NCBI GenBank assembly: GCA_015066225.1 | Contig: SVOT01000005.1 | Location: 4,498 to 68,497, forward strand | Length of the DNA stretch: 64,000 nt | Reading direction: 5' to 3' | Origin: Oscillospiraceae bacterium | GTDB taxonomy: Bacteria; Bacillota; Clostridia; Oscillospirales; Acutalibacteraceae | Shown here: positions 7,461 to 63,997 of the stretch, piece by piece | Numbering within the stretch: position 1 is the stretch's first letter | How the letters are laid out: each line of letters begins with the position of its first letter | Notes under the pieces: model-generated | The model's input: only the letters and a program-made list of their open reading frames with translations | Told to the model about the DNA's origin: nothing | Database searches by the model: none | Program-made: the position numbers and the translations under genes

Positions 7461-8894
7461 ATGGCTAACGAAGTAATCGAGAAAAAAGAGCATCCAAACA
7501 AAATCGGTGTGCGTGAGGGCATCGGCTATATGCTGGGCGACGGCGGCAACCTTTTTGTGCTCACTTACGTTTCATCTTATCTAAAGGTTTTTTACACCGA
7601 CATTTTAAAAATCCCCACAACACAGGTTGCGAACCTGTTTCTTTTCACCCGCTTGTGGGATGCGATAAACGACCCTATGTGGGGTGCGATTGTTGCTAAA
7701 AAACGCCCCAATAAAGATGGTAAATACCGACCCTATCTCAAATGGCTGGCAATTCCCCTTGCCATTACCCAGATACTTTGCTTTATAAATGTAACGGAAT
7801 ACACACAAAATCCCGTTCTGATTCTTATTTTTGCATACATTACATATATCGCATTCGGTATGCTTTACACGGGGATGAACGTGCCCTTCGGCTCCCTTGC
7901 ATCGGTTATCACCGATGACCCCGACGGCAGAACACTTCTTTCCACCTTCCGCACAATCGGCAGCGGTGTTGGCGGTGCCGCACCTGCACTTCTTGCGCCA
8001 TTCCTCATTTATGCCACAAAAACTGCGGCAGACGGCAGCAAATATAACGTTGCAGATGCAAGCGGTATGTTCAACTTCGCTCTTGTAATGGGCGGCCTCG
8101 CAATCGTATTTTATTACGCCTGCTACGGCATGACAAAGGAGCGGGTTCCCTCAGAGGCTGAGCCAAAGGTAGATATGAAGAAAATCTATGGCGGAATGTT
8201 TAAAAGCAAGCCCTTTGTTGTGCTTGCTCTGACAGGCATTCTCATCAGCGGTCAGCTTCAGTTCAACTCTCTCAACCAATATCTTTACAAAAACTATTTC
8301 TGTGACACCTCGCTTTCTGTTATGGGAACAATCGCACAGTATGCCCCCCTTGTTCTTATGCTACCATTCTCCGGAAAGCTTGTTAAAAAGTTCGGCAAAA
8401 AAGAAATCTGCGGCGTAACTTCGTTTGTTGCGGCGGCGGCAGCGGTTGCCACATTCTTTATAAAGCCCGCTCCCGACCAGGCATGGCTTTTCCTTGTGCT
8501 TCAGTTCATTATCGGCTTTGGCTATTCTTTCGTTTCAATCACAAACTGGGCTATTGTTGCCGACGTTATCGACTACCAGTTCTATAAAACCGGCTTCAGA
8601 AACGAAAGTGCGGTTTATGCCGTTTACACATTCTGCAGAAAGCTTGGCCAGACTGCCGCAGACTACGGCGGACTTATTCTTCTCGGTAAAATCGGCTACG
8701 ATGCAGCAACTATGGCAGATGCAGGCTTCGTGCCCGGCATAAGTGAGGGCATCCTCACGGTTTGCACCCTGATCCCCGCAATCACATACACACTCGTTTT
8801 CATTCTCTACAAATTCTTCTATCCCCTCACAAAGGAGAAGCTGGAGCCCGTTTACGAATACGTGAGAGAATCAAACACAGTTGCAGAAAACTAA
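7461..8894 (+). CDS. GPH/MFS family glycoside-pentoside-hexuronide transporter
   Basis: ATG 7461 with AAGGAGG RBS. Twelve-TM-like profile with the LFLFTRLWDAINDPMWG motif typical of GPH symporters. Confidence 0.75.
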   Translation: MANEVIEKKEHPNKIGVREGIGYMLGDGGNLFVLTYVSSYLKVFYTDILKIPTTQVANLFLFTRLWDAINDPMWGAIVAKKRPNKDGKYRPYLKWLAIPLAITQILCFINVTEYTQNPVLILIFAYITYIAFGMLYTGMNVPFGSLASVITDDPDGRTLLSTFRTIGSGVGGAAPALLAPFLIYATKTAADGSKYNVADASGMFNFALVMGGLAIVFYYACYGMTKERVPSEAEPKVDMKKIYGGMFKSKPFVVLALTGILISGQLQFNSLNQYLYKNYFCDTSLSVMGTIAQYAPLVLMLPFSGKLVKKFGKKEICGVTSFVAAAAAVATFFIKPAPDQAWLFLVLQFIIGFGYSFVSITNWAIVADVIDYQFYKTGFRNESAVYAVYTFCRKLGQTAADYGGLILLGKIGYDAATMADAGFVPGISEGILTVCTLIPAITYTLVFILYKFFYPLTKEKLEPVYEYVRESNTVAEN

Positions 8895-8902
8895 ATTCAA
8901 AA

Positions 8903-8932
8903 AGCAGACAGTTTCGACTGTCTGCTTTTTTT
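8903..8932 (+). terminator. rho-independent terminator
   Basis: Hairpin AGCAGACAG-tttcga-CTGTCTGCT followed by TTTTTT. Confidence 0.75.
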
Positions 8933-8984
8933 AGTTGGAAGTTGCAGGTGGCTGGTGGCAAGTTTCGGGGCGCAAGCGCCGATT
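8933..8984 (+). repeat. terminal repeat (TR), copy at one end of element E1
   Basis: Sequence AGTTGGAAG TTGCAGG TGGCTGG TGGCAAG TTTCGGG GCGCAAGCGCC GATT: a heptamer array plus a GC hairpin. The same architecture occurs at five other loci. Confidence 0.8.
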
Positions 8985-9002
8985 TTATTAATATGTAAAA
9001 TT

Positions 9003-9174
9003 GTTGCGAAGCCTATCATCCCTGTGCACGCAAGTGCATAGGGAGGGGGACCGCGCCTAAGTGTAACGAAGGCGGGGTGGTGGGTCGCCACCTTATTGTT
9101 TTCCTTCGCAGATGAAACGGAAAATCTCACCTCTCATTTACCTCCCTTCGAAGAGAGGTAAAACACCACCAAAA
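9003..9174 (-). ncRNA. candidate structured RNA module, long form (E1 copy)
   Basis: The reverse complement aligns end to end with 42738-42903: TTTTGGTGGTG, hairpin TACCTCTCTTCGAAGGGAGGTA, hairpin TTTTCC..GGAAAA, then the shared core with covarying hairpins. No family name is known to me. Confidence 0.5.
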
Positions 9175-9185
9175 CAAATTATTAC

Positions 9186-9288
9186 AATCGGCACGTAGTG
9201 CCCCGAAACTGGAGGCTGGCGACCGGTGGCTGGTAGCTAAACACCTTGCGCCCCGAAACTTGCCACCTGCCACTCTCAACTTGCAACT
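9186..9288 (-). repeat. two tandem TR copies (inverted relative to 8933-8984)
   Basis: 9238-9288 reverse-complements to AGTTGCAAG TTGAGAG TGGCAGG TGGCAAG TTTCGGGGCGCAAGG. 9186-9237 reverse-complements to CTACCAG CCACCGG TCGCCAG CCTCCAG TTTCGGG GCACTACGTGCC GATT, a variant heptamer set with a compensated hairpin. Confidence 0.75.
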
Positions 9289-9396
9289 AAAAAAGCGGCT
9301 TGGATTTAACCAAACCGCCTTTGTAATATTAAATTGAGTTAATCCGGGTCAATCACAGAACCGTCCTCTGTCTTACTCCCCTGTCTTATCCCTACC

Positions 9397-9951
9397 TTAT
9401 GTCTTATGTGTTTGTCCTTTTATCAATGGAATAACAAATACGGCACCGCAAAAGCTGAACGCAATTAACGCTAACATAAGACCTATTTTATCACCAAGCA
9501 AACGATCCACAAGAAAAAGCATAACGATAGAAATAATGGTTATCAGTTTAATGTTTGTTGTTATTATTGATATAAATCTCTTGGGAAAGCGAACTCTTTT
9601 CAAAAATGCAAATGCGACAACAAAAACTAAAACTACCAAACATAATATTATAAATGCTATAACTCTTTCCGCAGTTGTAAGTTCAAAAATAGAAACACAT
9701 TGAATTATTGATAAAACCGAATTGCACAATCCAAAAGCGCCAATATATTTATGGCTATTATTTTGTGTAATTACATTTTTTAAAAGCAGAAAAGCAAAAA
9801 ACAGAGCCATAACCGCAACAAAAATGGCTGTGCCTATCAACGCGGGTGATTTACGTGTTAAAAATACCAGAAAACCAAACATTATATCCGCCAACAAGTA
9901 AACCGAAAGGATTATAGCAACATTTTTCTTTACATCTTTTTTTTGCTTCAT
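9397..9951 (-). CDS. hypothetical polytopic membrane protein
   Basis: 184 aa with about 5-6 hydrophobic segments and AT-rich codon usage. I recognise no family. A hairpin with a T-run follows at about 9295-9335. Confidence 0.5.
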   Translation of the reverse strand: MKQKKDVKKNVAIILSVYLLADIMFGFLVFLTRKSPALIGTAIFVAVMALFFAFLLLKNVITQNNSHKYIGAFGLCNSVLSIIQCVSIFELTTAERVIAFIILCLVVLVFVVAFAFLKRVRFPKRFISIITTNIKLITIISIVMLFLVDRLLGDKIGLMLALIAFSFCGAVFVIPLIKGQTHKT

Positions 9952-10008
9952 TGATACAACTCCTTTGTGTCACGTCAAAAAACCGAGAAAAATCAGAGAT
10001 TTAGTTTA

Positions 10009-10593
10009 TTATTTGATTGGCTTAAATGATTGATTCTTCCTAAAACGAATACAAACAAATAAAACAGCCACAAAAATAAAAACTGAAAAAACAGTTATAT
10101 AGAGTTTGACGCAATAGTCTGACAACGGCATCAAATAAACAACTTTATTACCATCGTCAGTTTCTTTTATAATTTTAGTTCTCCCAAAATTGAAAACCTG
10201 CTTATAAACTGTTCCATCTTTTTTTACAAATTCTGCTTTGTTTTCTCTATATTCATATAGAGAGCCTGTACTTTTAAGTTCTTCTAAAACATTGCCATTC
10301 AAATCTAACAAATAAACTTTACTGCTTATCAAATATATTGTATCATCTTCAAGAATAGTAAATTCATACCCTCTACTTGTCATTGCTGAGATTGTTTCAA
10401 AAGAAAAACCATCTTTATATTTTACAATTTTACCATTTGATAACCCAACATAAACATTATCATTACTATCAACTGCAAAACCATAAAAAGAAATATCAAA
10501 CCAACCAACTGTCACGCCAAAAAAGGAAAACAGATAGCAGCCTAAAAGGACTCCGATTACTAGCATAAGAATAAAACTATCAATTTTTTTCAT
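10009..10593 (-). CDS. hypothetical protein with N- and C-terminal TM helices
   Basis: 194 aa. TM helices flank a beta-rich middle region (DSNDNVYVGLSNGKIVKY...DDTIYLISSKVYLLDLNGNV). GGAG RBS. AT-rich. Confidence 0.5.
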   Translation of the reverse strand: MKKIDSFILMLVIGVLLGCYLFSFFGVTVGWFDISFYGFAVDSNDNVYVGLSNGKIVKYKDGFSFETISAMTSRGYEFTILEDDTIYLISSKVYLLDLNGNVLEELKSTGSLYEYRENKAEFVKKDGTVYKQVFNFGRTKIIKETDDGNKVVYLMPLSDYCVKLYITVFSVFIFVAVLFVCIRFRKNQSFKPIK

Positions 10594-10940
10594 AAATCAA
10601 CTCCGAAATAAAACAGAAGCCATCTCTCTGTCTTATTTTGTTTTCACCGTTATTAAAAACGGACACCTAAACTATCCTTTCCACAACGCCTTTCGGCGTG
10701 TAAAAATCTTTAATCTATCAATCCAAATATTAATCTTAACAAAACTAATATAACACTAATTTTCGTTTTCTTCAACACAGCGTAAAGAAGGCAACCACCC
10801 CCTGTCGTTTTAAGATCCCCTAGGTGGGTGAATTATTTAAATTCACCCTATATATTTTTAACCCTCATCCATATATGTTTTTTATCATCAAATTACTACA
10901 ATTTTTTGCAAAATTTTTTTAGTTTTTCACACATTTGTAG

Positions 10941-10975
10941 GGTTGCACAGGTTCTGGTGGCGGGATTTGTTAAAA
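10941..10975 (+). repeat. degenerate TR copy (start of element E2)
   Basis: GGTTGCACAGGTTCTGGTGGCGGGATTTG resembles the heptamer-array part of the TR. Confidence 0.4.
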
Positions 10976-10987
10976 ATGCAAAAGCGA

Positions 10988-11125
10988 GACGGTCAAGACC
11001 GTCCCCTACGTTGTTCGTTTCAGCAATAAAGAGCGTCCGCAAGGGGGCGACCCACCACCAAAAGCGCAGCTTTTGGTCCCCCTCCCTATTTTGCTACGCA
11101 AAACAGGGATGATAGGCTTCGCAAC
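10988..11125 (+). ncRNA. candidate structured RNA module, short form (E2 copy)
   Basis: Hairpin GACGGTC-aa-GACCGTC, then CTACGTTGTTCGTTTCAGCAATAAAGAGCGTCCGCAAG, then the shared core GGGGGCGACCCACCACC..CAGGGATGATAGGCTTCGCAAC. The 5' part matches 58203-58240. Confidence 0.5.
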
Positions 11126-11142
11126 ACTTTTATATATCAATA

Positions 11143-11195
11143 CAATCGGCGCTTGCGCCCCTTAACTTGCCACTTGCCATTTGCCACTTGCAACT
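11143..11195 (-). repeat. TR copy (inverted; end of element E2)
   Basis: Reverse complement reads AGTTGCAAG TGGCAAA TGGCAAG TGGCAAG TTAAGGG GCGCAAGCGCC GATTG. Confidence 0.8.
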
Positions 11196-11291
11196 AATTT
11201 ATTTAACTTTCCACTTGTTTTAGTTTTTTATCTCTGTTATACTGTATTATGTATTTTTATGATATAAAAACATCTGTTACGGAAGTGTGAT

Positions 11292-12284
11292 ATGAAAAAT
11301 ATTTTAAAGCGGGCAATCGCTCTTGTGACAACATTTTGCTGTGTAGCCTCTCTGCTTGTTTTCAGCGGATGCTCTACCCCCAAAAAGCAACCGGTTATGT
11401 CTATAAACGGCGTTGAAATCAGCAACGACGTTTTCACATATTTTTTAGACTGTGCAACAGTTGAGCTGGGTGTGGATGCACCCCTTGAATCGCTGAAGAA
11501 AAAGGCTTCGACTCTTGCGGGAACTTATTTTAAAATAAACTCCCTTGCAAACAAGCACGGGGTCACCCTCACAACGGGCGAGAAAAAGGCTGTTTCTGAA
11601 AAAGTGGATGCTCATTGGCACTTTTTCGGTGAGTATTATACAGAAATCGGCATAAGCCGTGAAACTCTCACAAAGGTTTTTACCGCCGATGCATACAGAG
11701 ATGCTCTTCTGATGTTCTTTTACGGCACAGGCGGCGAGGAGGAAATCCCCGTTGCACGACTTTTTGGTGAATTTAAAACAAACTACATCGTTTTTCAGGC
11801 TATTACGGGTTATTTCACAAAAACCGACATAAACGGCAGACCCGTTAAAATACCCGAAACCGAAGCAGAGGCGCTTATTCTCAAGTTTCAGAATATTGCC
11901 GCTATGGTAAACGCCGGCGAGCAGACTATGGAGGAGGCCGCAGATTTCCTTGCTGAAACCGGCTACAAAAGCTCGGTGCAGACGGTTATTCTAAACAAGG
12001 ATGACACGAGCTACCCTGCAGGCTTTTTTGAAAGGGTTAAAAAAATCGATGCTAAAAAAGCAACCGTCATCGGCACGGATGAGTACATTTTCCTTGTACT
12101 CAGGGGCGACGCAGGTGTAAACAGTGAATATTTCATTGAGAAAAAGACTGAAATGATTAAAATAATTGTCGGCGATGAAATTGACAACAAAATCGCAGAC
12201 TCCATGGTGGTTGACGTTGTAATCTCAGATTCCGACGTAAACGGCTATTACGCCTTGATAAAGGATGCAAAAACCGAAAAATAA
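11292..12284 (+). CDS. lipoprotein, possibly a PrsA/SurA-like foldase
   Basis: Lipobox LVFSGC after a signal peptide. The overall layout resembles SurA-N/parvulin-like chaperones, but I saw no clear PPIase signature. Confidence 0.4.
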   Translation: MKNILKRAIALVTTFCCVASLLVFSGCSTPKKQPVMSINGVEISNDVFTYFLDCATVELGVDAPLESLKKKASTLAGTYFKINSLANKHGVTLTTGEKKAVSEKVDAHWHFFGEYYTEIGISRETLTKVFTADAYRDALLMFFYGTGGEEEIPVARLFGEFKTNYIVFQAITGYFTKTDINGRPVKIPETEAEALILKFQNIAAMVNAGEQTMEEAADFLAETGYKSSVQTVILNKDDTSYPAGFFERVKKIDAKKATVIGTDEYIFLVLRGDAGVNSEYFIEKKTEMIKIIVGDEIDNKIADSMVVDVVISDSDVNGYYALIKDAKTEK

Positions 12285-28676: not shown

Positions 28677-29960
28677 TTATTCTGCTGAGGTTATATCCGG
28701 AATTTCAAGTATCCCGTCGGCTATGCCTGTTTCAAGCTCCTCCACGCCTTTGAGCTTTTTCTGAATAATATCATTTCTGTGGCGTGCTTCGTCAAGGCTC
28801 TTGCCTGCCTCATCGATTTTTTTGCGTGCCTTTTCAAGGACATTGCCAAAGGTTTCATACTGTGTCTTTGCCGCCGCAAGCAGCTTTCTTACCTCGTCGG
28901 CTTTTTCGTTGATTGCCATAGCCTTGAAGCCCATTGCAAAGGAGTTAAGAAGCGCCGTTATTGTTGACGGACCCGCCACCATAACGTTTTGCGCCTGAAG
29001 CTTTTCTGCAATGCCGGATTTTGAGGATGCTATTTCTGCATAAAGCCCCTCGGTTGCAAGGTAAAGAACTGCAAATGGAGTTGTTTTTGGAACAACGATA
29101 TATTTCTTTATATCCTTTGCCTCTGCAAGAACTCTGTCTTCAAGGGCTTTTCTTGCCGCCTTGAGAGCGTCGGGGTCGGCTCTGTCTGCCGCCTCGCATA
29201 CTCTGACATAATCCTCAAGGGGAAATTTGGAGTCGATTGGCAAATAGATATCCTCACCGCTTTTGTCACTATTGGGGAATCTTATTGCAAACTCAACGTG
29301 CTCACTGTTGTTTTTTGGTGAATAGTTTTTAACGTAGAGCCCCGGGATTGTCTGGTCAAGAATCGCCTCAAGCTGAACCTCTGCCCAGGTGCCTCGTGCC
29401 TTAACATTTGAAAGAATTCTGTTAAGAGAGGTTACGTTGGATGTAACTCCCTGTGAAAGCTCTTTCATTTCGCCGAGAGATTTATAAACGTTTTCGAGCT
29501 GTTCAGAAACAGTCTTGAATGAGGAGTTGAGCCTTGTTGTGAGAGTCTGTGTAAGCTTTTCGTCAACTGTAAGACGCATTTCTTCAAGCTTTTTCTCGTT
29601 GCTCTCCTGCATTTTCGAAATAGATTCGCTGACTGCTTTAGACTGCCTTTCTGCACTTTGAAAATTCTGCTCCTGAATTGACTTGAGGGAGGCAGAGATT
29701 TTCTCACTCATATCAATTCTGCTCTGGTAGTTTTCTTTCACCATTGTGCTGAGCTTTTCTTCAATTTTACCGAGGGCTGCATTTGTTTCTTCACGGGTTT
29801 CTCTGCCGGAGCGTGCCATTTCTTCACGGTTACGGCGAAATTCCTCATAAATTGCATCGTTATTTTTGCTTTTCTTCAAAGAAAGAACAAGAACAATGCA
29901 AACAATTGAAAGTGCAACAGTCAGCGCACCGAATAATATAATTAATGTTTCTGTATTCAT
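28677..29960 (-). CDS. rmuC: DNA recombination protein RmuC
   Basis: N-terminal TM, long coiled-coil, conserved block ARGTWAEVQLEAILDQ, 427 aa. Confidence 0.85.
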   Translation of the reverse strand: MNTETLIILFGALTVALSIVCIVLVLSLKKSKNNDAIYEEFRRNREEMARSGRETREETNAALGKIEEKLSTMVKENYQSRIDMSEKISASLKSIQEQNFQSAERQSKAVSESISKMQESNEKKLEEMRLTVDEKLTQTLTTRLNSSFKTVSEQLENVYKSLGEMKELSQGVTSNVTSLNRILSNVKARGTWAEVQLEAILDQTIPGLYVKNYSPKNNSEHVEFAIRFPNSDKSGEDIYLPIDSKFPLEDYVRVCEAADRADPDALKAARKALEDRVLAEAKDIKKYIVVPKTTPFAVLYLATEGLYAEIASSKSGIAEKLQAQNVMVAGPSTITALLNSFAMGFKAMAINEKADEVRKLLAAAKTQYETFGNVLEKARKKIDEAGKSLDEARHRNDIIQKKLKGVEELETGIADGILEIPDITSAE

Positions 29961-29976
29961 GATACTCCTTTATTTA

Positions 29977-30029
29977 AGTGGCAAGTTAGAAGTTGCAAGT
30001 GGCAAGTTTCGGGGCGCTTTGCGCCGATT
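29977..30029 (+). repeat. TR copy (element E3)
   Basis: AGTGGCAAG TTAGAAG TTGCAAG TGGCAAG TTTCGGG GCGCTTTGCGCC GATT. It starts 17 nt upstream of the rmuC start codon, on the opposite strand. Confidence 0.8.
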
Positions 30030-30044
30030 ATAATTGGTATATTA

Positions 30045-30329
30045 CAGGTTTGCGGAATTGTGAAGCAACGCTGTACAAAGGTACTGCAAGCTGAACAAAA
30101 CACAAAGATTGCTTATTTTAAAAAACCATAAAGAATTTTCTTAGATTGCGTCAGGTTCGTGGCTTTGTGAAACGCAGGCGTACAAAGGTACATCAAGTTG
30201 AACAACCCACAAAATGCTGCAACGTATAGAATTTTCTTAGATTGTAGCAGGTTTGCGGAATTGTGAAGCGACGCTGTACAAAGGTACTGCGAGCTGAACA
30301 AAACGCAAAGATGCTGCAATATAAGGAAA
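30045..30329. repeat. three tandem direct repeats of about 96-107 bp
   Basis: Units begin at 30045, 30152 and 30248 (CAGGTTTGCGGAATTGTGAAGC.ACGCTGTACAAAGGTACTGC.AGCTGAACAAAAC.CAAAGA..). Units 1 and 3 are near identical and unit 2 is diverged. Confidence 0.8.
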
Positions 30330-31829
30330 TTATTCCCAGTTGCGTGAACGGTCTACTGCTTTATGCCAACCATTTATCATCTTTTCTCTTGAATCGTTAT
30401 CGATTGCGGGGACAAAAATGCGGTCAACCTCACGAACACGCTCGATTTCGTCAAAATCCTTCCAGAAGCCAACGGCAAGACCTGCCATATAGGCGGCACC
30501 GAGAGCGGTTGTTTCAACAAGCTTTGGTCTGTTGACCTTAGATGAAATAAGGTTTGATTGAATCTGAAGAAGAATGTTGCTGACAGATGCACCGCCGTCA
30601 ACTCTCATTTCGCTGAGAAGAATGCCACTGTCTTTGGACATTGCGTCCACAAGGTCGGTTACCTGATAGGCGATGCTTTCAAGCACCGCTCTTGCAAAGT
30701 GGGCGCGGTTAACGCCTCTTGTAAGGCCAACAATACATCCCCTTGCGTACATATCCCAATAGGGTGCACCAAGACCCGTGAAGGCGGGCACAAGATATAT
30801 ACCGTTTGCATCCCTTACGCTTTCTGCAAGAAAATCACATTCGCTGGGCTCGGAAATAAGGCGGAGCTCGTCACGGAGCCATTTGATAACAGAGCCCGCA
30901 TTGAATGCACTGCCCTCAAGGTCATAGGTAACCTTGCCGTTTATTCCCCAAGCGATGCCTTCAATAAGGTTATTTTTTGAGCGGATGCGCTTTTCACCCG
31001 TATTCATAAGAAGGAAACAGCCTGTGCCGTATGTATTTTTTGCCTGACCCGCATTGAAGCAAGCCTGACCGAAAAGAGCCGCCTGCTGGTCACCGATTGC
31101 ACCCGAAATGGGAACACCGGCAAGCTCTTTGAGACCGGGTACATCGTCGGAAACGTAGCCGTAAACGGAGCTACATTCCCTCACCTCGGGGAGAATACTC
31201 ATCGGTATGCCCAGCTCGTTGCAAAGATGCTCATCCCAGCAAAGCTTTTCAATATCGAAAAGCATTGTTCTTGCGGCGTTACTGTAATCTGTGACGTGAA
31301 CCTGTTTGTTGGTGAGGTTCCAGATAAGCCACGTTTCAACAGTACCGAAAAGGAGCTTGCCATCAAGGGCAAGTGTTCTTGCCTCAGGAACATTGTCAAG
31401 AATCCATTTTATTTTTGTTGCGCTGAAATATGCATCAATAAGAAGACCTGTGTGCTCTTTTACATAGTCCTCAAGGCCATCTGCTTTGAGCTTTTCACAG
31501 ATGGGTGCCGTTCTGCGACACTGCCACACAATAGCATTGTAAACAGGCTTGCCTGTGTCTTTATCCCAAAGAATGGTTGTTTCGCGCTGGTTTGTGATGC
31601 CGATTGCGGCAATTTCTTTGGGGTCAATTTTGCCGTTTATGAGTGCCATGGAAAGGGAGCGAAGCTGTGAATCAAGAATTTCATAGGGGTTGTGCTCCAC
31701 CCAGCCTGTTTTAGGATAAATCTGTTCAAATTCAAACTGAGCCTTAGATACTATTCTGCCTTTTTTGTCAAAAACTATAGTTCTTGAGCTTGTTGTGCCC
31801 TGGTCAAGGGCGAGAACATATTTTTTCAT
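30330..31829 (-). CDS. glpK: glycerol kinase
   Basis: The start [24 protein letters not shown] and the FGGY family blocks are present. 499 aa. Confidence 0.9.
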
Positions 31830-42553: not shown

Positions 42554-42681
42554 TTTTCTACCTCATTCCGAACAATATTCAATTTATTTTATCATATCAA
42601 TCCACGGAATACAACAAATTTTGAAAGAAAAATAGGCATGTTATTTTTCTTCACAGCGAGCGTGTGAACATCACTAGATCG

Positions 42682-42726
42682 AGTTGCAAGTGGCAGATGG
42701 CAAGTTTCGGGGCACAAGCGCCGATT
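42682..42726 (+). repeat. TR copy (element E4)
   Basis: AGTTGCAAG TGGCAGA TGGCAAG TTTCGGG GCACAAGCGCC GATT. Confidence 0.8.
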
Positions 42727-42737
42727 GTATTGATGTG

Positions 42738-42903
42738 TTTTGGTGGTGTTTTACCTCTCTTCGAAGAGAGGTAAAAGAAAGGTGAGCTTTTCCGATTCAT
42801 CTGCGAAGGAAAGAGGTAAGGGGGCGACCCACCACCAAAAGCATAGCTTTTGGTCCCCCTCCCTATTTGCCGTTGGCAAACAGGGATGATAGCTCTTCGC
42901 AAC
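42738..42903 (+). ncRNA. candidate structured RNA module, long form (E4 copy)
   Basis: TTTTGGTGGTG; perfect hairpin TACCTCTCTTCGAAGAGAGGTA; hairpin TTTCC..GGAAA; core GGGGGCGACCCACCACC-(ACCAAAAGC/GCTTTTGGT)-CCCCCTCCCTAT-(TTTGCC/GGCAAA)-CAGGGATGATAGCTCTTCGCAAC. Confidence 0.5.
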
Positions 42904-42912
42904 GCCGCAACA

Positions 42913-58178: not shown

Positions 58179-58330
58179 ACGGGTAAGCCCCGAAGCTTGC
58201 AACTACGTTATTCGTTTCACCAACGAAGAGCGTCCGCAAGGGGGCGACCCACCACCCCGCCTGCGTTACACTACGGCGCGGTCCCCCTCCCTATTTGCCG
58301 TTGGCAAACAGGGATGATAGGCTTCACAAC
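58179..58330 (+). ncRNA. candidate structured RNA module, short form (E5 copy), preceded by a truncated TR
   Basis: ACGGGTAAGCCCCGAAGCTTGCAACT (TR hairpin plus last heptamer), then CTACGTTATTCGTTTCACCAACGAAGAGCGTCCGCAAG, then the core with hairpins ACCCCGCC../..GGCGCGGT and TTTGCC/GGCAAA, ending GGGATGATAGGCTTCACAAC. Confidence 0.5.
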
Positions 58331-58351
58331 ACTTTAACAATAGAGGTAATT

Positions 58352-60099: not shown

Positions 60100-61482
60100 T
60101 CAGAATGCGATTTTTTCTTCAATGTAGCTTTCAAGCTCATTTATAGAAATGCGAACCTGCTCCATTGTATCTCTGTCACGTACTGTTACGCAACCGTCTT
60201 CAACGCTTTCAAAGTCGTATGTGATGCAGAAGGGTGTGCCGATTTCATCCTGACGGCGATATCTTTTACCGATTGAGCCTGCGTCATCATAATCAACGTT
60301 GAACTTTTTGGAAAGAGAGGTGAACACCTCTGTTGCCTGCTCGTTGAGCTTCTTTGAAAGGGGAAGAATTGCACATTTGAAGGGTGCAAGTGTGGGATGA
60401 AGACGAAGAACAACTCTTGTGTCGTTCTTTTCTGCGTCAACAACCTCTTCATCATAAGCCTCTGTGAGGATTGTGAGGAAAAGTCTTTCAACGCCGAGAG
60501 AGGGCTCGATAACGTAGGGAATGTATCTCTCGTTTGTTTCGGGGTCGAAATAATCAAGGCTCTTACCTGAGGTATTGATGTGCTGAGTGAGGTCATAGTC
60601 TGTTCTGTCGGCAACGCCCCAAAGCTCGCCCCAGCCGAAGGGGAAAAGGTATTCAAAGTCTGTTGTAGCCTTTGAATAGAAGCAAAGCTCCTCGGGGTCG
60701 TGGTCACGAAGACGAAGGTTTTCTTCTTTAATGCCCAGAGAATAGAGCCAGTCACGGCAGAAGCCACGCCAATATTCAAACCATTCAAGGTCTGTGCCGG
60801 GCTTGCAGAAAAATTCAAGCTCCATCTGTTCAAACTCACGAACACGGAAAATGAAGTTACCGGGTGTGATTTCGTTACGGAATGATTTACCGATCTGAGC
60901 AACACCGAAGGGAACCTTCTTTCTTGTTGTTCGCTGAATATTTGCAAAGTTTACAAAAATACCCTGTGCAGTTTCGGGGCGAAGATAAAGCTCGTTTTTG
61001 CTGTCCTCAGTAACACCCTGGAAGGTTTTGAACATAAGGTTAAACTGACGGATATCTGTAAAATTATGCTTGCCGCACTGGGGGCAGGCAATTTCTTTTT
61101 CTTTGATGTATTCCATCATCTGCTCATTTGACCAGCCTGCAACATTTGTGCCGTCGAAATCCTCAATGAGGTTGTCTGCTCTGTGGCGTGTTTTACATTC
61201 ACGGCAATCCATAAGCGGGTCAGAGAAGCCGCCAAGGTGACCTGATGCAACCCATGTCTGGGGATTCATGAGAATTGCGCTGTCAAGACCAACGTTGTAG
61301 GGGTTCTCCTGAATAAACTTCTTTCTCCAAGCATTTTTGATGTTTGTTTTGAGCTCAACACCAAGGGGACCGTAGTCCCAAGTGTTTGCAAGACCGCCGT
61401 AGATTTCACTGCCGGCATACACGAAACCCCTGCCCTTGCAAAGAGCAACGAGTTTTTCCATCGACTTTTCTGTGTTTTTCAT
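60100..61482 (-). CDS. glyQS: glycine--tRNA ligase (homodimeric type)
   Basis: 460 aa. Blocks [31 protein letters not shown] and [13 protein letters not shown] (class II motifs). Confidence 0.9.
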
Positions 61483-61506
61483 AGTGTTTATCCTTTCAGA
61501 TTAAAT

Positions 61507-61559
61507 AGTTGCAAGTGGCAAGTTGCAAGTGGCAAGTTTCGGGACCTGCGGTCGGCATT
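61507..61559 (+). repeat. TR copy (E6, glyQS-proximal)
   Basis: AGTTGCAAG TGGCAAG TTGCAAG TGGCAAG TTTCGGG ACCTGCGGTC GGCATT. The hairpin stem is changed but still complementary. Confidence 0.8.
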
Positions 61560-61597
61560 ATAACTAACACCACTCTCACTTACTTTGCACCATTAAA

Positions 61598-61951
61598 TTA
61601 CTTTTGTAGGTTGTTTTTAGTTGTTCTGACTATTGCATACAGTGTTTTCTCTATCTCTACACATTCTGCCAAAATAGATTCCACTTCTCTCTCGGTCAAT
61701 TTCCCTGTCGCTTTTAAAAGCCTCAACCAATATTTGGTTTCGCTGTTTTCTTTTAATGCAATATTCATTTTCGTCAAAAAATCTGCTTGACTTTGAGCCT
61801 GTTGTGCTTCCGCGACATTTGCGCCTATACTTGTTCCAGAACGCAAAATCTGGCTGCTGATATCATACTCGTTTGTGTGTTTAAGCAAGTAATCCTTCAA
61901 ATTCACAATTCTGACAGCAAAGTCAAAAGTGCGTTTTTCAATATCAGCCAT
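61598..61951 (-). CDS. four helix bundle protein (TIGR02436 / 23S rRNA intervening-sequence protein family, Avd-like)
   Basis: QILRSGTSIGANVAEAQQAQSQADFLTKMNIALKENSETKYWLRLL matches the family signature (RS.TSIGANIAEA...S..DF..K..IALKE..ET.YWL.LL). ATG 61951 with GAAGG RBS. Confidence 0.85.
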   Translation of the reverse strand: MADIEKRTFDFAVRIVNLKDYLLKHTNEYDISSQILRSGTSIGANVAEAQQAQSQADFLTKMNIALKENSETKYWLRLLKATGKLTEREVESILAECVEIEKTLYAIVRTTKNNLQK

Positions 61952-61988
61952 ATATACGCCTTCATTCAAATATCTTTTTATTGTTTTA

Positions 61989-62042
61989 CAATCGGCGCAT
62001 AGCGCCCCTTAATTTGCCACTTGCCACTCTCAACTTGCAACT
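61989..62042 (-). repeat. TR copy (E6, distal, inverted)
   Basis: Reverse complement reads AGTTGCAAG TTGAGAG TGGCAAG TGGCAAA TTAAGGG GCGCTATGCGCC GATTG. Confidence 0.8.
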
Positions 62043-62047
62043 TGTTA

Positions 62048-63997
62048 TCAGTTGTCTGTATCAAGCTTTTTATCTGATACCTTGCCGCCGAATTGACTGT
62101 AATACATATCTGCATAAAGACCGTCTGCTGCCATAAGCTGGTCGTGAGTTCCCCTTTCTTTTACGGCGCCGCCGTCGATAAAGAGGATTTCGTCTGCCTT
62201 TCTGATGGTTGAAAGACGGTGGGCGATAACAAAGTTTGTTCTGCCCTTCATAATTTCGCTCATAGCCGCCTGAACAAGAAGCTCTGTTCTTGTGTCAACG
62301 GAGCTTGTAGCCTCGTCAAGAATAAGAATTTGCGGGTCCTTGAGAAGTGCCCTTGCTATTGTAAGAAGCTGTCGCTGACCCTGTGAAAGGTTTGCGCCGT
62401 TTTCTTCGAGAATTGTTTCATAGCCGTCGGGCAATTCTTTTATGAATTCTTCGGCTCTTGCCGCCTTTGCCGCCGCAATAACCTCTTCATCTGTTGCACC
62501 GAGCCTGCTGTAACGGATGTTATCCTTAACAGAGCCGTTGAAAAGCCACGTATCCTGAAGAACCATACCGTAAAGCGACCTGAGCTCATCTCGGGGCACG
62601 TCTCTTATATCTGTTCCGTCAATGGTGATTTTGCCGCCGTTGACGTCGTAAAAACGCATTAACAGGTTAACAAAGGTTGTTTTGCCTGCACCCGTGGGGC
62701 CAACAAGGGCAACCAGGCCACCTCTTTTAACGGTGATGTCAAGGTGCTCCATAAGAGGCTTTTCGGGGTCGTATGAAAATGACACATCCTCAAACTTCAG
62801 TTCTTTTTCGAAGGTGAGCTTTGCTTTGTCGCTGTCTGCATCCTCCTCGGGCTCGTCTAAAAGAGCAAAAACTCTTTCGGATGAAGCCATGCTCGATTGA
62901 AGATTGTTTGCAATCTGCGCAAGCTGTGAAATTGGGGATGTAAACAATTTTGAGTATGTGATAAAGGTGAGAATGCCGCCAATAGTGAAGCTTTCACCCA
63001 TATCGTAAATAACCGTTCCGCCAATTGCGAAAACGCCGTTGTTGACAATAAGGAAGCCACCCAACACCGCAATAATAATATAGCCGATGTTGTCAACAAG
63101 GTTAATAAACGGGGCAATTATGCCCGAAATAAACTGGGCTCTGCGTGAAACGTCGGTGAGCTCGTCGTTTATGTCGTTGAACTCGTCAACCGCCAACTGC
63201 TCCTGCCCGAAGAGGCGAACAATTTTGTGGCCTGTGTACATTTCTTCAACGTGGCCGTTAAGCTCGCCCATTCTGTCCCATTGCTTTTTAAACAGCTTCT
63301 TGGACACCCTCATAATGCTGAGCGCTATTGCCGCCGCGGGGGGCACAACAGCCACAACCGCAAGGGTAAGAAACCAGTTTGTTGCAAGCATCATTCCGAA
63401 AACGCCCACAATGGTCACTATGGAAGTGATGATTGAAACCATATTGTGCTGGAGGGTGTTGCTGATATTGTCAATATCGTTGATTATTCTCGAAAGAATA
63501 TCACCCTTTGCGTTGGAGTCAAAATATTTAAGCGGAAGGTGTGAGAGCTTGTGGTTAATATCCTCTCGCAGACGGCGGACTATTTTCGCCGTTACGCCTG
63601 CCATTGTGTATTGCTGAATAAACGAGAAAACAGCCATACCTCCATAAGCCACAAGAATCAGCACTAAATACGGCACAAGAGCCTCCGCAGAAATCTGCTG
63701 ACCGTGAATTTTAAGCTCAACCTGCTCACTGAGCACGTCGAGTGCTTCACCAATGTAGGTGGGGCCAACAACGTTGCCAATGGTGCTGAGAATGCAGGTG
63801 ATAAGCACAATCACCATGCCCACCTTGTGTTCAAACAAATACTTTACAAGTCGTTTTGCCGTTGGCACAAAGCTCTGGGGCTTTTCGCCCGTTTCCTTGT
63901 TACTTCTGTATGAGGAATATCTCTGTTGGCGGGTTTTTCGCCTGTTTTCAAGAACCTTCTGCCTTTTTTCGTCAAGATTTCGTGCTTGGGGTTTCAT
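62048..63997 (-). CDS. ABC exporter, fused permease/ATP-binding protein
   Basis: Six-TM domain followed by Walker A GPTGAGKTT, LSQGQRQL and ILILDEATSSVD. 649 aa. The start is at the window edge. Confidence 0.8.
   Translation of the reverse strand: MKPQARNLDEKRQKVLENRRKTRQQRYSSYRSNKETGEKPQSFVPTAKRLVKYLFEHKVGMVIVLITCILSTIGNVVGPTYIGEALDVLSEQVELKIHGQQISAEALVPYLVLILVAYGGMAVFSFIQQYTMAGVTAKIVRRLREDINHKLSHLPLKYFDSNAKGDILSRIINDIDNISNTLQHNMVSIITSIVTIVGVFGMMLATNWFLTLAVVAVVPPAAAIALSIMRVSKKLFKKQWDRMGELNGHVEEMYTGHKIVRLFGQEQLAVDEFNDINDELTDVSRRAQFISGIIAPFINLVDNIGYIIIAVLGGFLIVNNGVFAIGGTVIYDMGESFTIGGILTFITYSKLFTSPISQLAQIANNLQSSMASSERVFALLDEPEEDADSDKAKLTFEKELKFEDVSFSYDPEKPLMEHLDITVKRGGLVALVGPTGAGKTTFVNLLMRFYDVNGGKITIDGTDIRDVPRDELRSLYGMVLQDTWLFNGSVKDNIRYSRLGATDEEVIAAAKAARAEEFIKELPDGYETILEENGANLSQGQRQLLTIARALLKDPQILILDEATSSVDTRTELLVQAAMSEIMKGRTNFVIAHRLSTIRKADEILFIDGGAVKERGTHDQLMAADGLYADMYYSQFGGKVSDKKLDTDN

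What the first reader, a model, noticed from the sequence alone, without database searches (positions are those of the whole stretch)
61507..62042. Four-helix-bundle (IVS/Avd-like) gene packaged as an inverted-repeat cassette between an ABC exporter and glyQS
A 117-aa TIGR02436-type protein gene is flanked by ~50-bp inverted copies of the same terminal repeat that bounds the RNA modules elsewhere in the window. The two arms can form a ~37-bp imperfect stem in a transcript. This mirrors how 23S rRNA intervening sequences, which carry this gene family, are excised by RNase III; here the cassette sits in an mRNA context. The same protein family includes Avd, the accessory protein of diversity-generating retroelements. 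The cassette lies 5 nt after the ABC gene stop and 24 nt before the glyQS start, in the same orientation. Shared ends with different cargo suggest a modular, possibly mobile or RNA-processing cassette system that I have not seen described.
Basis: partly seen in the sequence, partly recalled or inferred. Interest (0 to 1): 0.72.

Follow-up and report, generated by a model that had tools for sequence, protein, structure and literature searches.

The report
Heptamer-hairpin cassette carrying four-helix-bundle gene
A small, well-conserved gene of the "23S rRNA intervening-sequence protein" family sits between an ABC exporter gene and the glycyl-tRNA synthetase gene, enclosed by inverted runs of 7-base repeats, and the same packaging surrounds relatives of this gene in at least five bacterial phyla, linking three old puzzles: rRNA intervening sequences, cyanobacterial heptamer repeats and this protein family.

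Summary
A 117-aa TIGR02436/PF05635 gene (61598-61951, minus strand) is bracketed by inverted copies of a terminal repeat. Each copy has 4-5 tandem heptamers (AAGTTGC/AAGTGGC) plus a small GC hairpin. Six more copies of this repeat lie in the window, most next to non-coding modules.

The arms fold into a long stem enclosing the ORF (z -4.5; -7.0 in an orthologue). The protein is under purifying selection. It is not a DGR Avd.

The main new result is that this packaging is the family norm:
- 67 of 74 metagenomic homologues have flanking inverted repeats above the 99th percentile of controls.
- 10 of 10 inspected plasmid-borne homologues (Cyanobacteria, Spirochaetota, Bacteroidota, Chloroflexota, Clostridia) have inverted heptamer arrays.
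- The repeat period is 7 on about 75-80% of sides, against 1.6% of controls.

The ORF-bearing 23S rRNA intervening sequence of Coxiella has heptamer repeats at its RNase III cut site.

Best reading: an IVS-type cassette living in an mRNA, probably cut at its stem by RNase III. In this ruminant-gut Acutalibacteraceae lineage its ends have multiplied as ORF-less mosaic repeats. RNA processing and the route of spread are inferred, not shown. No cassette-only empty site was found at ABC-glyQS. A strain-level cargo swap was found at another repeat-bounded module.

The parts
61987..62047 (-). 5' terminal repeat of the cassette in the sense (minus-strand) direction. It comprises the heptamer array 62014-62044 (AAGTTGC AAGTTGA GAGTGGC AAGTGGC AAATT), then AAGGGG, then a small hairpin GGCGC-uau-GCGCC (61994-62006), then GATTGTA.
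   Evidence: Inverted-repeat pair I1. TRF period 7. nhmmer terminal-repeat profile E = 6.4e-17.
61598..61951 (-). Gene for a 117-aa four-helix-bundle protein (TIGR02436 / PF05635, '23S rRNA intervening sequence protein' family). A GAAGG ribosome-binding site lies about 8 nt upstream of the ATG.
   Evidence: HMM scores. PDB 2RLD_A at E = 2.8e-33. dN/dS 0.04-0.11 against homologues.
61503..61565 (-). 3' terminal repeat of the cassette in the sense direction. Small hairpin GACC-ugc-GGUC (plus-strand coordinates 61543-61553), CCCGAAAC, then the heptamer array (61507-61538). It ends 24 nt before the glyQS ATG.
   Evidence: nhmmer E = 2.8e-14.
62048..63997 (-). Upstream context: ABC exporter gene (649 aa). 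Its stop codon lies 4 nt before the heptamer array.
   Evidence: Pfam ABC_membrane + ABC_tran on identical contigs.
60100..61482 (-). Downstream context: glyQS (glycine-tRNA ligase, 460 aa). No strong sigma-70-type promoter match between the cassette and the gene; no T-box leader.
8931..9291 (+). ORF-less module A, bounded by terminal repeats. Left repeat 8931-8993. Right side is a nested pair of repeats (9178-9240 and 9244-9291, inverted). Cargo is the R1 RNA-like element, 9001-9188.
10941..11199 (-). Module B: R1 element (10941-11128) followed by one terminal repeat (11135-11199).
29975..30319 (+). Module C: terminal repeat (29975-30039) followed by about three copies of a 96-nt tandem unit (TRF call: 30132-30319).
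   Evidence: No Rfam match.
42680..42905 (-). Module D: R1 element (42733-42905) plus one terminal repeat (42680-42735). In another strain the R1 cargo is replaced by a different short repeat unit.
58199..58333 (-). Fourth R1 copy in the window, without a detected terminal repeat.
   Evidence: nhmmer E = 1.9e-30.

Best explanation
This is an IVS-type cassette living in an mRNA. A functional gene for a PF05635/TIGR02436 four-helix-bundle protein is enclosed by inverted arrays of 7-nt tandem repeats, here elaborated with a small GC hairpin. It is inserted inside the ABC-exporter-to-glyQS transcription unit of an uncultured ruminant-gut Acutalibacteraceae bacterium.

Shown:
- The architecture, and its conservation in orthologous loci of sister species.
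- Its occurrence at unrelated loci in related genomes.
- The same architecture (ORF between inverted heptamer arrays, typically 4-5 units per arm) around most homologues in five phyla.

Inferred by analogy with the ORF-bearing 23S rRNA intervening sequences of Coxiella and Leptospira:
- The cassette is co-transcribed with its neighbours.
- The arms pair into a roughly 30-45-bp RNA stem.
- RNase III cuts in that stem. This releases the ORF-containing hairpin and separates the upstream RNA from the downstream glyQS RNA. That would explain why such an insertion is tolerated inside operons, tRNA operons and rRNA.

Inferred:
- The unit spreads as a whole by an unknown DNA-level route.
- In this lineage its ends (heptamers plus hairpin) have multiplied as ORF-less mosaic repeats carrying structured-RNA-like cargo.
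For: Architecture and non-randomness.

Predicted fold: a long terminal stem encloses the ORF, z = -4.5 in the window and -7.0 in the orthologue L058.

Orthologous cassettes:
- L058 and L069 keep ABC-cassette-glyQS. Protein identities are 4HB 71-79%, ABC about 80%, GlyRS 97.5-98%.
- In L058 both arms carry AAATGGC units where the window has AAGTTGC/AAGTGGC, and its arms match each other better.
- dN/dS is 0.04-0.11 with synonymous sites saturated, yet the arms remain recognisable.

Same cassette type at unrelated sites: dnaJ/ylmH-aldo-keto reductase, MatE/PqqD-NTP_transf_5, and tRNA-Leu operons.

Family-wide rule:
- 67 of 74 metagenomic homologues (46-68% identity) have flanking inverted repeats above the control 99th percentile. 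Median score 46 against 16; control maximum 26.
- 10 of 10 inspected plasmid-borne homologues from Nostoc, Aulosira, Planktothrix, Euhalothece, Gloeocapsa, Treponema, Bernardetia, Chlorohelix and Monoglobus have them too.
- Period 7 is found in 62/83 upstream and 67/83 downstream flanks, against 4/250 controls.
- Arm length peaks at 4-5 units.

Literature: the Coxiella 23S IVS is 428 nt, has a 28-bp terminal stem and an S23p ORF, is cut by RNase III, and has tandem heptamers GACAGAT with the 5' cut at the first repeat (PMC4990558).

Derivative repeats: 83 terminal-repeat copies in the window plus 48 loci from 12 related MAGs. A strain-level cargo swap occurs at module D.
Against: - No RNA-end data exist for this cassette. 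Cleavage is inferred only.
- Mismatches between arms show no excess of G.U-type over A.C-type pairs on the sense strand (62 against 67, p = 0.72). So the sequence gives no strand-specific RNA signature, and a DNA-level constraint would fit equally.
- No cassette-only empty site was found at ABC-glyQS.
- No target-site duplication is evident, and no recombinase or transposase recurs near the repeats, so the means of spread is unknown.
- glyQS, presumably essential, lies directly downstream with no strong promoter match of its own. Cleavage would therefore have to leave a functional glyQS mRNA.
- The controls for flank repeats were random positions, not flanks of other short genes.
Confidence: 0.6

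Rival explanations
1. A DNA-level transposable element. The heptamer arrays plus hairpin are terminal inverted repeats recognised by a transposase or recombinase encoded elsewhere. This would resemble a MITE or a mobile insertion cassette, with the four-helix-bundle gene as a passenger. Pairing in RNA would be incidental.
For: - Multi-copy ends: 83 copies in the sampled loci.
- Metagenome contigs break inside the arrays.
- The same cassette occurs at unrelated sites.
- Cargo swap between strains.
- Symmetric mismatch spectrum of the arms.
- Many solo ends abut terminator T-runs, which could reflect a target preference.
Against: - No target-site duplication is visible at five cassette junctions.
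- No transposase-like ORF family recurs next to the repeats in 48 loci.
- More than 40 different heptamer sequences are used across the family while period and arm length stay constant. That is unlike ends matched to one transposase.
- The gene is almost always the cargo and is under purifying selection. A random passenger would not be.
- Genuine members inside 23S rRNA are processed at the RNA level.
Confidence: 0.2
2. The heptamer arrays are binding sites for the encoded four-helix-bundle pentamer. This would be autoregulation of its own mRNA or DNA and, in this genome, binding in trans to the other heptamer-bounded modules. The inverted arrangement would be secondary.
For: - Heptamer sequence diverges in step with the protein. 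Mean distance is 0.03 of 7 positions at 90% or more protein identity, rising to 2.7-3.2 below 60%.
- Arms peak sharply at 4-5 units. The family forms homopentamers (Lin 2006, cited in PMC4990558; 2RLD has 5 chains).
- All terminal repeats in the window use the same heptamer flavour as the only 4HB gene found in it.
- A related genome mixes three flavours, and 4HB cassettes with similar flavours (AATGCAG; AATTAGG/AATGAGG) exist elsewhere.
Against: - Co-divergence is also expected from simple common descent of gene and arms.
- No nucleic-acid-binding evidence exists for non-Avd members.
- The protein has no PADLOC or PHROGs family match that would suggest a role.
- Whole genomes could not be searched for other paralogues.
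Confidence: 0.15
3. An accessory protein (Avd) of a diversity-generating retroelement, with the repeats being template or variable repeats.
For: Same protein superfamily (PMC10053308). Weak hit to the Avd model.
Against: - The Avd equivalog scores 16.6 bits against a cut-off of 80.
- Neighbours within about 6 kb are lysS, two ABC genes, glyQS and nucleoside-salvage genes, with no reverse transcriptase.
- The repeats are inverted heptamer arrays, not a template/variable repeat pair.
Confidence: 0.02
4. Chance inverted repeat or ordinary terminator hairpins around an ordinary small gene.
For: None beyond the AT-rich intergenic setting.
Against: Score 39 against a maximum of 28 in 2925 window controls. 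14 against 0.69 expected core matches. No T-run after the stem. Family-wide recurrence.
Confidence: 0.01

Closest known systems
ORF-bearing intervening sequences (IVS) of 23S rRNA (Coxiella burnetii helix 45; Leptospira; Ralph & McClelland 1993; Warrier et al. 2016, PMC4990558)
   Same: - Same protein family in the ORF (S23p / PF05635).
- Similar size (428 nt against about 545 nt).
- Terminal inverted repeats form a long stem that encloses the ORF.
- Tandem heptamers lie in the 5' arm next to the start codon.
- Already suspected of being a selfish or mobile element.
   Different: - The window cassette lies between protein-coding genes in an mRNA, not in an rRNA helix.
- Its ORF is under purifying selection, whereas the Coxiella ORF appears to be decaying and untranslated.
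- Its arms carry an extra conserved GC hairpin.
- The same ends also flank ORF-less RNA-like modules.
- RNase III cleavage has not been shown here.
Cyanobacterial STRR (short tandemly repeated repetitive) heptamer sequences and other intergenic heptamer arrays (Mazel 1990, from my own knowledge; PMC2670836; PMC4679880)
   Same: 7-bp tandem units in intergenic regions, often as inverted arrays able to form hairpins. Function unknown. Also found inside a stable RNA gene (RNase P RNA; Vioque 1997, cited in PMC2858038).
   Different: In the papers I could search, STRRs are described as repeats only, without a link to a gene. Here, and in 6 of 6 cyanobacterial plasmid examples inspected, the arrays bracket a TIGR02436 gene. 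The host here is a clostridial gut bacterium.
MITEs and mobile insertion cassettes (for example MIC231 of Bacillus cereus; from my own knowledge)
   Same: Shared terminal inverted repeats around varied, non-transposase cargo. Multi-copy. Intergenic. Strain polymorphism of cargo.
   Different: No target-site duplication and no cognate transposase was identified. The ends are tandem heptamer arrays whose sequence varies widely between lineages.
REP/BIME mosaics and REPIN-RAYT systems (from my own knowledge)
   Same: Mosaic intergenic repeats built from a small conserved hairpin combined with other motifs. One gene is flanked by the same repeats that are dispersed through the genome.
   Different: No GTAG-type REP motif. 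The flanked gene is a four-helix bundle, not a Y1 (HUH) transposase. No RAYT-like ORF family recurred in the sampled loci, although ORFs were clustered rather than annotated.
Avd of diversity-generating retroelements
   Same: Homologous four-helix-bundle fold. Avd is also a pentamer that works with RNA.
   Different: Fails the Avd model (16.6 against 80 bits). No reverse transcriptase and no template/variable repeats at the locus.

Membership tests
TIGR02436 / PF05635 four-helix-bundle ('23S rRNA intervening sequence protein') family | Profile score above the curated cut-off over the full length | tested here: met
   TIGR02436: 106.6 bits (cut-off 24), residues 5-112 of 117. PF05635: 95.8 bits (cut-off 33.8).
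TIGR02436 / PF05635 four-helix-bundle family | Four-helix-bundle fold forming a homopentamer | tested here: inconclusive
   Sequence match to the solved structure 2RLD_A, E = 2.8e-33, an entry with 5 chains. No structure was predicted or compared here.
23S rRNA intervening sequence (IVS) element | Located within a 23S rRNA helix (9, 25 or 45) | tested here: not met
   The cassette lies between the ABC exporter gene and glyQS. No rRNA or any Rfam family was detected in the window.
23S rRNA intervening sequence (IVS) element | Terminal inverted repeats forming a long stem that encloses the insert | tested here: met
   42-nt arms, 79% complementary. Terminal stem in the minimum-free-energy fold, z = -4.5.
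23S rRNA intervening sequence (IVS) element | Carries an S23p/IVP-family ORF (the ORF-bearing subclass) | tested here: met
23S rRNA intervening sequence (IVS) element | Tandem heptamer repeats in the arm next to the ORF (reported for Coxiella) | tested here: met
   Period-7 arrays in both arms. Coxiella description in PMC4990558.
23S rRNA intervening sequence (IVS) element | Excised from the precursor RNA by RNase III | not testable with these tools
   Requires RNA end mapping or in-vitro cleavage.
DGR accessory protein Avd | Meets the Avd equivalog model NF033474 | tested here: not met
   16.6 bits against a cut-off of 80.
DGR accessory protein Avd | Adjacent reverse transcriptase and template/variable repeat pair | tested here: not met
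   Genes within about 6 kb carry no RT domain. The only repeats are inverted heptamer arrays.
MITE / mobile insertion cassette | Terminal inverted repeats shared by many copies with different cargo | tested here: met
   8 copies in the window and 83 in the sampled loci. Cargo classes include the 4HB gene, R1, a 96-nt tandem unit, a terminator-like hairpin and a second heptamer array.
MITE / mobile insertion cassette | Target-site duplication at the junctions | tested here: inconclusive
   Flanks are A/T-rich, but no consistent direct repeat is seen at five cassette junctions.
MITE / mobile insertion cassette | Cognate transposase with matching ends in the same genome | tested here: inconclusive
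   ORFs from 48 loci of about 8 kb plus the window were clustered. The recurrent clusters looked like orthologous neighbouring genes, but their members were not annotated. Whole genomes could not be searched.
Cyanobacterial STRR-type heptamer hairpins | Tandem 7-bp units in intergenic DNA, in inverted arrays able to form a hairpin | tested here: met
   Definition from PMC2670836.
REP/BIME-RAYT | REP palindrome with conserved GTAG head, and a RAYT (Y1 transposase) gene flanked by REPs | tested here: inconclusive
   The hairpin consensus is (T/A)(T/A)(C/A)GGGGC(G/A)C-loop-G(C/T)GCCGATT, with no GTAG head. The flanked gene is a four-helix bundle. No RAYT-like family recurred in the sample, but the clustered ORFs were not annotated.

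The most novel reading that the evidence does not exclude
The four-helix-bundle pentamer is a sequence-specific binder of tandem heptamers in RNA or DNA, about one unit per subunit. It would be the trans-acting factor of a so far unrecognised class of heptamer-bounded elements, and three things would then be one system:
- ORF-bearing 23S rRNA intervening sequences;
- the ORF-containing 'autonomous' cassettes in mRNAs and tRNA operons;
- ORF-less heptamer hairpins (cyanobacterial STRRs, and the repeat-bounded RNA modules of this genome).

Each protein paralogue would be matched to its own heptamer 'flavour', and would control processing, stability or copying of all elements that carry it.
Probability: 0.2. 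Interest if true: 0.88.

Novelty: new variant of a known kind. Interest (0 to 1): 0.68.

Why it matters
ORF-bearing rRNA intervening sequences (known since about 1990), cyanobacterial heptamer repeats (STRRs, known since 1990) and the very large TIGR02436 protein family all lack a known function. They have been treated separately in the literature I could search.

The window cassette and the survey built on it show that the gene and inverted heptamer arrays travel together in at least five phyla. They are found in mRNAs, upstream of or within tRNA-Leu genes, inside restriction-modification operons and, according to the literature, in 23S rRNA.

This turns three vague puzzles into one testable object with obvious experiments:
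- RNase III mapping of the stem.
- Binding of the protein to its own heptamers.
- Matching of heptamer flavours to paralogues in complete genomes.

It also matters in practice. These repeats break metagenome assemblies, and here one sits directly upstream of the glyQS gene, which is presumably essential.

Tried and rejected
- **Rfam.** Nothing at gathering threshold in the whole window. Nothing meaningful at E <= 1 in 8800-11400, 61350-62150 or 29900-30450. No known RNA family explains the ends or the cargo.
- **tRNA scan of the window.** None found.
- **DGR/Avd reading.** Rejected.
- **Exact-protein look-ups of the 4HB and GlyRS proteins.** These returned only the same locus, 100% identical over the cassette, so they gave no polymorphism information.
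- **Search for an empty site at ABC-glyQS.** Relatives with 97.6% identical GlyRS lack the whole ABC-ABC-cassette block and have their own glyQS promoter. Others, at 94% identity, have a different neighbourhood. No cassette-only empty site was found.
- **Strand-specific RNA signature.** Tested by comparing G.U against A.C mismatches between arms. The result was null, 62 against 67.
- **Enzyme encoded next to the repeats.** ORFs from all repeat-bearing loci were clustered. Only clusters that looked like orthologous neighbouring genes recurred, and they were not annotated.
- **PADLOC and PHROGs.** No match for the protein.
- **glyQS promoter in the cassette's 3' part.** The conserved TTATAAT is part of the terminal-repeat consensus and has no convincing -35 box. 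The only scanner hit is a weak TTGACC-17-TATTTT inside the ORF.
- **Literature.** Six searches (a seventh query returned an error). No paper in the searchable library links TIGR02436/PF05635 genes to flanking heptamer arrays outside the Coxiella IVS description. This library lacks most subscription journals, so an earlier description cannot be excluded.
- **Modules A and B.** Identical in all 23 contigs read.
Full report
**1. What is at the coordinates**

All three genes lie on the minus strand:
- an ABC exporter gene (62048-63997);
- a small ORF (61598-61951, 117 aa from the ATG);
- glyQS (60100-61482).

The small protein is a full-length member of TIGR02436 (106.6 bits, cut-off 24) and PF05635 (95.8 bits, cut-off 33.8). 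Its closest solved relative is 2RLD (E = 2.8e-33, five chains).

It is not an Avd. The Avd equivalog scores 16.6 bits against a cut-off of 80. The genes within about 6 kb are lysS, two ABC genes, glyQS and nucleoside-salvage genes, with no reverse transcriptase.

The ORF is flanked by inverted arms at 61502-61543 and 62006-62047 (42 nt, 79% complementary). Each arm is a period-7 tandem array (AAGTTGC/AAGTGGC, 4-5 units). On the inner side of each array lies a short conserved spacer, a 4-5-bp GC hairpin and GATTGTA/ATTATAA.

The inverted repeat scores 39. The maximum among 2925 same-geometry controls in the window is 28.

**2. The same ends elsewhere in the window and in relatives**

The heptamer core occurs 14 times in the window against 0.69 expected. 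A profile of the whole terminal repeat (TR) finds eight copies in the window.

Besides the two cassette arms, the TR copies belong to non-coding modules at 8931-9291, 10941-11199, 29975-30319 and 42680-42905. Module A is bounded on both sides; the other three carry a TR on one side.

One scan of species-representative genomes with a TR pattern returned 56 loci:
- 48 lie in 12 MAGs of ruminant-gut Acutalibacteraceae or 'Clostridia bacterium';
- 8 lie in unrelated phyla, which is about the number expected by chance.

In the 48 related loci plus the window, the profile finds 83 TR copies at E < 1e-5.

The TR is a variable heptamer array joined to a conserved hairpin. Of the 83 copies, 57 have a perfect 5-bp stem: GGCAC/GTGCC (35 copies) or GGCGC/GCGCC (22 copies). 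That is one compensatory pair. Further variants include GACC/GGTC and GTGC/GCAC.

In L031, TR units with three different heptamer flavours are stacked in tandem, each followed by a similar GGGGCGC...GCGCC hairpin. The family is therefore a mosaic.

Two metagenome contigs end inside the arrays. This is expected for a multi-copy repeat.

**3. The cassette in relatives**

Exact-protein look-ups found only the same locus, identical in sequence.

Two sister species keep ABC-ABC-cassette-glyQS (L058, L069). Protein identities to the window are:

| Protein | Identity |
|---|---|
| 4HB | 71-79% |
| ABC transporters | about 80% |
| GlyRS | 97.5-98% |

At this site the cassette has therefore been inherited vertically together with the ABC block. 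dN/dS of the ORF is 0.04-0.11 with synonymous sites saturated. The protein is functional, and the non-coding arms are better conserved than neutral sites would be.

In L058 both arms carry AAATGGC units where the window has AAGTTGC/AAGTGGC, and its arms match each other better than those of the window. Both transcripts fold with a long terminal stem around the ORF (z = -4.5 and -7.0).

Other relatives with 97.6% identical GlyRS lack the whole ABC-ABC-cassette block. In them glyQS has its own TTGATT-17-TATAAT promoter. In the cassette-bearing species only 24 nt, including the ribosome-binding site, separate the arm from the glyQS ATG. The promoter scan lists no strong match there. glyQS must therefore be transcribed through the cassette or from within it. 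I found no cassette-only empty site at this locus.

The same cassette type, 65-75% identical in protein and with TR-like or bare heptamer arms, sits at unrelated sites:
- between a ylmH-like gene (downstream of dnaJ) and an aldo-keto reductase gene (L071, L072);
- between a PqqD-family gene (downstream of a MatE gene) and a gene cluster that includes an NTP_transf_5 gene (L074-L077);
- in front of tRNA-Leu genes (L078-L080).

**4. The general rule**

I aligned 24 homologues and fetched 80 metagenomic loci encoding relatives at 46-68% identity. I then compared 180 nt upstream with the reverse complement of 180 nt downstream.
- 67 of 74 testable loci exceed the 99th percentile of 530 shifted controls. 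The median is 46 against 16, and the control maximum is 26.
- The arms are almost always tandem heptamers, but of many sequences: AAATTGA/AAGTGGA, AGTTGAC, AGTGAAA, AATGGAT, AGTGAGG, AATGAAT, TAAACAT and others.

A tblastn search of plasmids found 31 records. All 10 that I inspected have inverted heptamer arrays around the gene:

| Organism | Heptamer unit |
|---|---|
| Aulosira, Nostoc flagelliforme | AATTCAA |
| Nostoc punctiforme | CAATTCG |
| Euhalothece | CCAGTGA |
| Planktothrix | AATCCCC / AATCGTA |
| Gloeocapsa | TTTAGAT |
| Treponema | GAAAGTG / GAGAGCG |
| Bernardetia | GATTAGT |
| Chlorohelix | GATGAAT |
| Monoglobus | AATTAGG / AATGAGG |

Further measurements:
- **Period.** Period 7 is the best period in 62/83 upstream and 67/83 downstream flanks, and on both sides in 53/83. 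Among controls it is 4/250.
- **Arm length.** It peaks sharply at 4-5 units. That bin holds 39 of 84 upstream and 43 of 84 downstream arms.
- **Co-divergence.** Heptamer sequence diverges in step with the protein.
- **Mismatch spectrum.** In 70 cassettes (2409 aligned arm positions, about 88% identical), mismatches show no excess of G.U-type over A.C-type pairs on the sense strand (62 against 67). The sequence alone cannot say whether the constraint acts on RNA or on DNA.

One caveat applies. The controls were random positions in the same loci, not flanks of other small genes.

**5. Comparison with what is known**

The ORF-bearing intervening sequence of Coxiella burnetii 23S rRNA (PMC4990558):
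- is 428 nt long;
- has terminal inverted repeats that form a 28-bp stem;
- encodes an S23p protein of this family;
- is cut by RNase III;
- has three tandem heptamers (GACAGAT), variable in number between strains, with the 5' cut at the first repeat.

The same paper records the old hypotheses that an IVS is a transposon remnant, or a mobile element whose ORF aids mobility.

Cyanobacterial STRRs are 7-bp repeats that form intergenic hairpins of unknown function (PMC2670836). They also occur inside the RNase P RNA gene (Vioque 1997, cited in PMC2858038). Heptamer arrays upstream of start codons have been described in Beggiatoaceae, Cyanobacteria and Bacteroidetes (PMC4679880).

None of the papers I could search links such arrays to TIGR02436 genes outside the Coxiella IVS. 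The library lacks most subscription journals.

The window cassette meets every sequence-level feature of an ORF-bearing IVS except location in rRNA. It is a new variant of that kind rather than a member in the strict sense.

**6. How it most likely works**

Shown: the architecture, its conservation and its generality.

Inferred from the IVS precedent:
- The cassette is co-transcribed with the ABC genes and glyQS.
- The arms pair.
- RNase III cuts the stem. This releases the ORF hairpin and uncouples the flanking RNAs.

Such self-insulating packaging would explain why these cassettes are tolerated within operons (here), inside restriction-modification operons, next to tRNA genes and in rRNA.

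How the unit spreads is unknown. No target duplication is evident, and no associated enzyme family recurred among the clustered neighbouring ORFs.

In this lineage the ends have multiplied without the ORF. They are dynamic: in one strain the R1 cargo of module D is replaced by a different short TR unit between flanks that are about 99% identical.

Rivals:
- A purely DNA-level TIR element mobilised in trans.
- Heptamers as binding sites for the encoded pentamer. This second idea is compatible with the main reading and is the basis of the novel case.

**7. Verdict**

The specific locus is one instance of a widespread association between a gene family and a repeat class. As far as I could find, that association has not been described.

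Noticed in passing
window 9001-9188(+), 10941-11128(-), 42733-42905(-), 58199-58333(-); 44 hits in window plus related loci: R1 is a conserved non-coding element of about 120-190 nt. Its core is GTTGCGAAGCCTATCATCCCTG-[variable hairpin]-TAGGGAGGGGGACC-[variable hairpin]-GGTGGTGGGTCGCCCC. It usually follows a terminal repeat directly. In 26 copies the first hairpin has 4 pairs with changes on both sides (5-11 sequences each). The predicted pairs include near-invariant G.U pairs, which would suggest that one specific strand folds. The second hairpin covaries by eye. There is no Rfam 15 match. It is a candidate new multi-copy structured RNA.
   Followed up: partly
L078 3395-4466; L079/L080 3404-3977; L110 259-824; also L090, L091, L096, L099, L108, L114, L116, L117, L121, L122, L139: In 15 of 92 loci scanned, a tRNA-Leu gene (CAG or TAG) lies about 40-180 nt downstream of the 4HB match on the same strand. 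tRNA-Arg (L136) and tRNA-Asn (L165) follow in the same way. In L078 (two tandem cassettes), L079/L080 and L110, each cassette is preceded by a copy of the 5' half of that tRNA (positions 1-39/40, up to the anticodon loop). The layout looks as if the unit had integrated into the anticodon loop while carrying its own tRNA 5' half.
   Followed up: partly
L183 (Monoglobus), L180 (Chlorohelix), L182 (Gloeocapsa), L181 (Planktothrix): Several heptamer-bracketed 4HB genes sit inside restriction-modification or defence-like operons: between hsdS and hsdR; between a helicase-related gene and an N6 DNA methylase gene; between a DUF1156 gene and a Swt1-family HEPN gene. They are co-oriented with the neighbours.
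   Followed up: no
L031 380-760 and 3070-3500: Terminal-repeat units with three different heptamer flavours (AATGCAG, AATTAGG/AATGAGG, AAGTGGC/AAGTTGC) are stacked in tandem around R1 elements. Each has a similar GGGGCGC...GCGCC hairpin. The outer arms of one element use different flavours on its two sides.
   Followed up: partly
window 42733-42905 against L172 1760-1870: Strain-level polymorphism. With flanks about 99% identical, the roughly 150-nt R1 cargo is replaced in one metagenome strain by a short unit, GCTGCCG GCCGCCG GTCGCCA GCCGCCG GTTTCGGGGGCTTCGCCC. The adjacent repeat hairpin differs by a compensatory change (GGCGCTTGTGCC against GGCACGAAGTGCC).
   Followed up: yes
window 30040-30319: About three tandem copies of a 96-nt unit (GGTTTGCGGAATTGTGAAGC...AAAGATGCTGCAA) directly follow the terminal repeat at 29975-30039. 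This is a third cargo class, with no Rfam match.
   Followed up: no
window 61483-61506 against L085-L088 2770-3000: No T-box leader was detected upstream of glyQS in this window (Rfam), and relatives have only short leaders. In species with the cassette, no strong promoter match lies next to glyQS. Relatives without the ABC-ABC-cassette block have a clear TTGATT-17-TATAAT promoter.
   Followed up: partly
window 9178-9291: The right end of module A is a nested pair of terminal repeats. The inner unit has GC-rich heptamers (GCTACCA GCCACCG GTCGCCA GCCTCCA). The outer unit is a truncated standard repeat. This suggests insertion of one repeat unit into another.
   Followed up: no
many terminal repeats, e.g. 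window 8905-8933, 9281-9320; L029, L042, L061: Many terminal repeats begin immediately after the T-run of a terminator-like hairpin of the neighbouring gene (...TTTTTT|AGTTGCAAG). This is either a target preference or part of the element.
   Followed up: no
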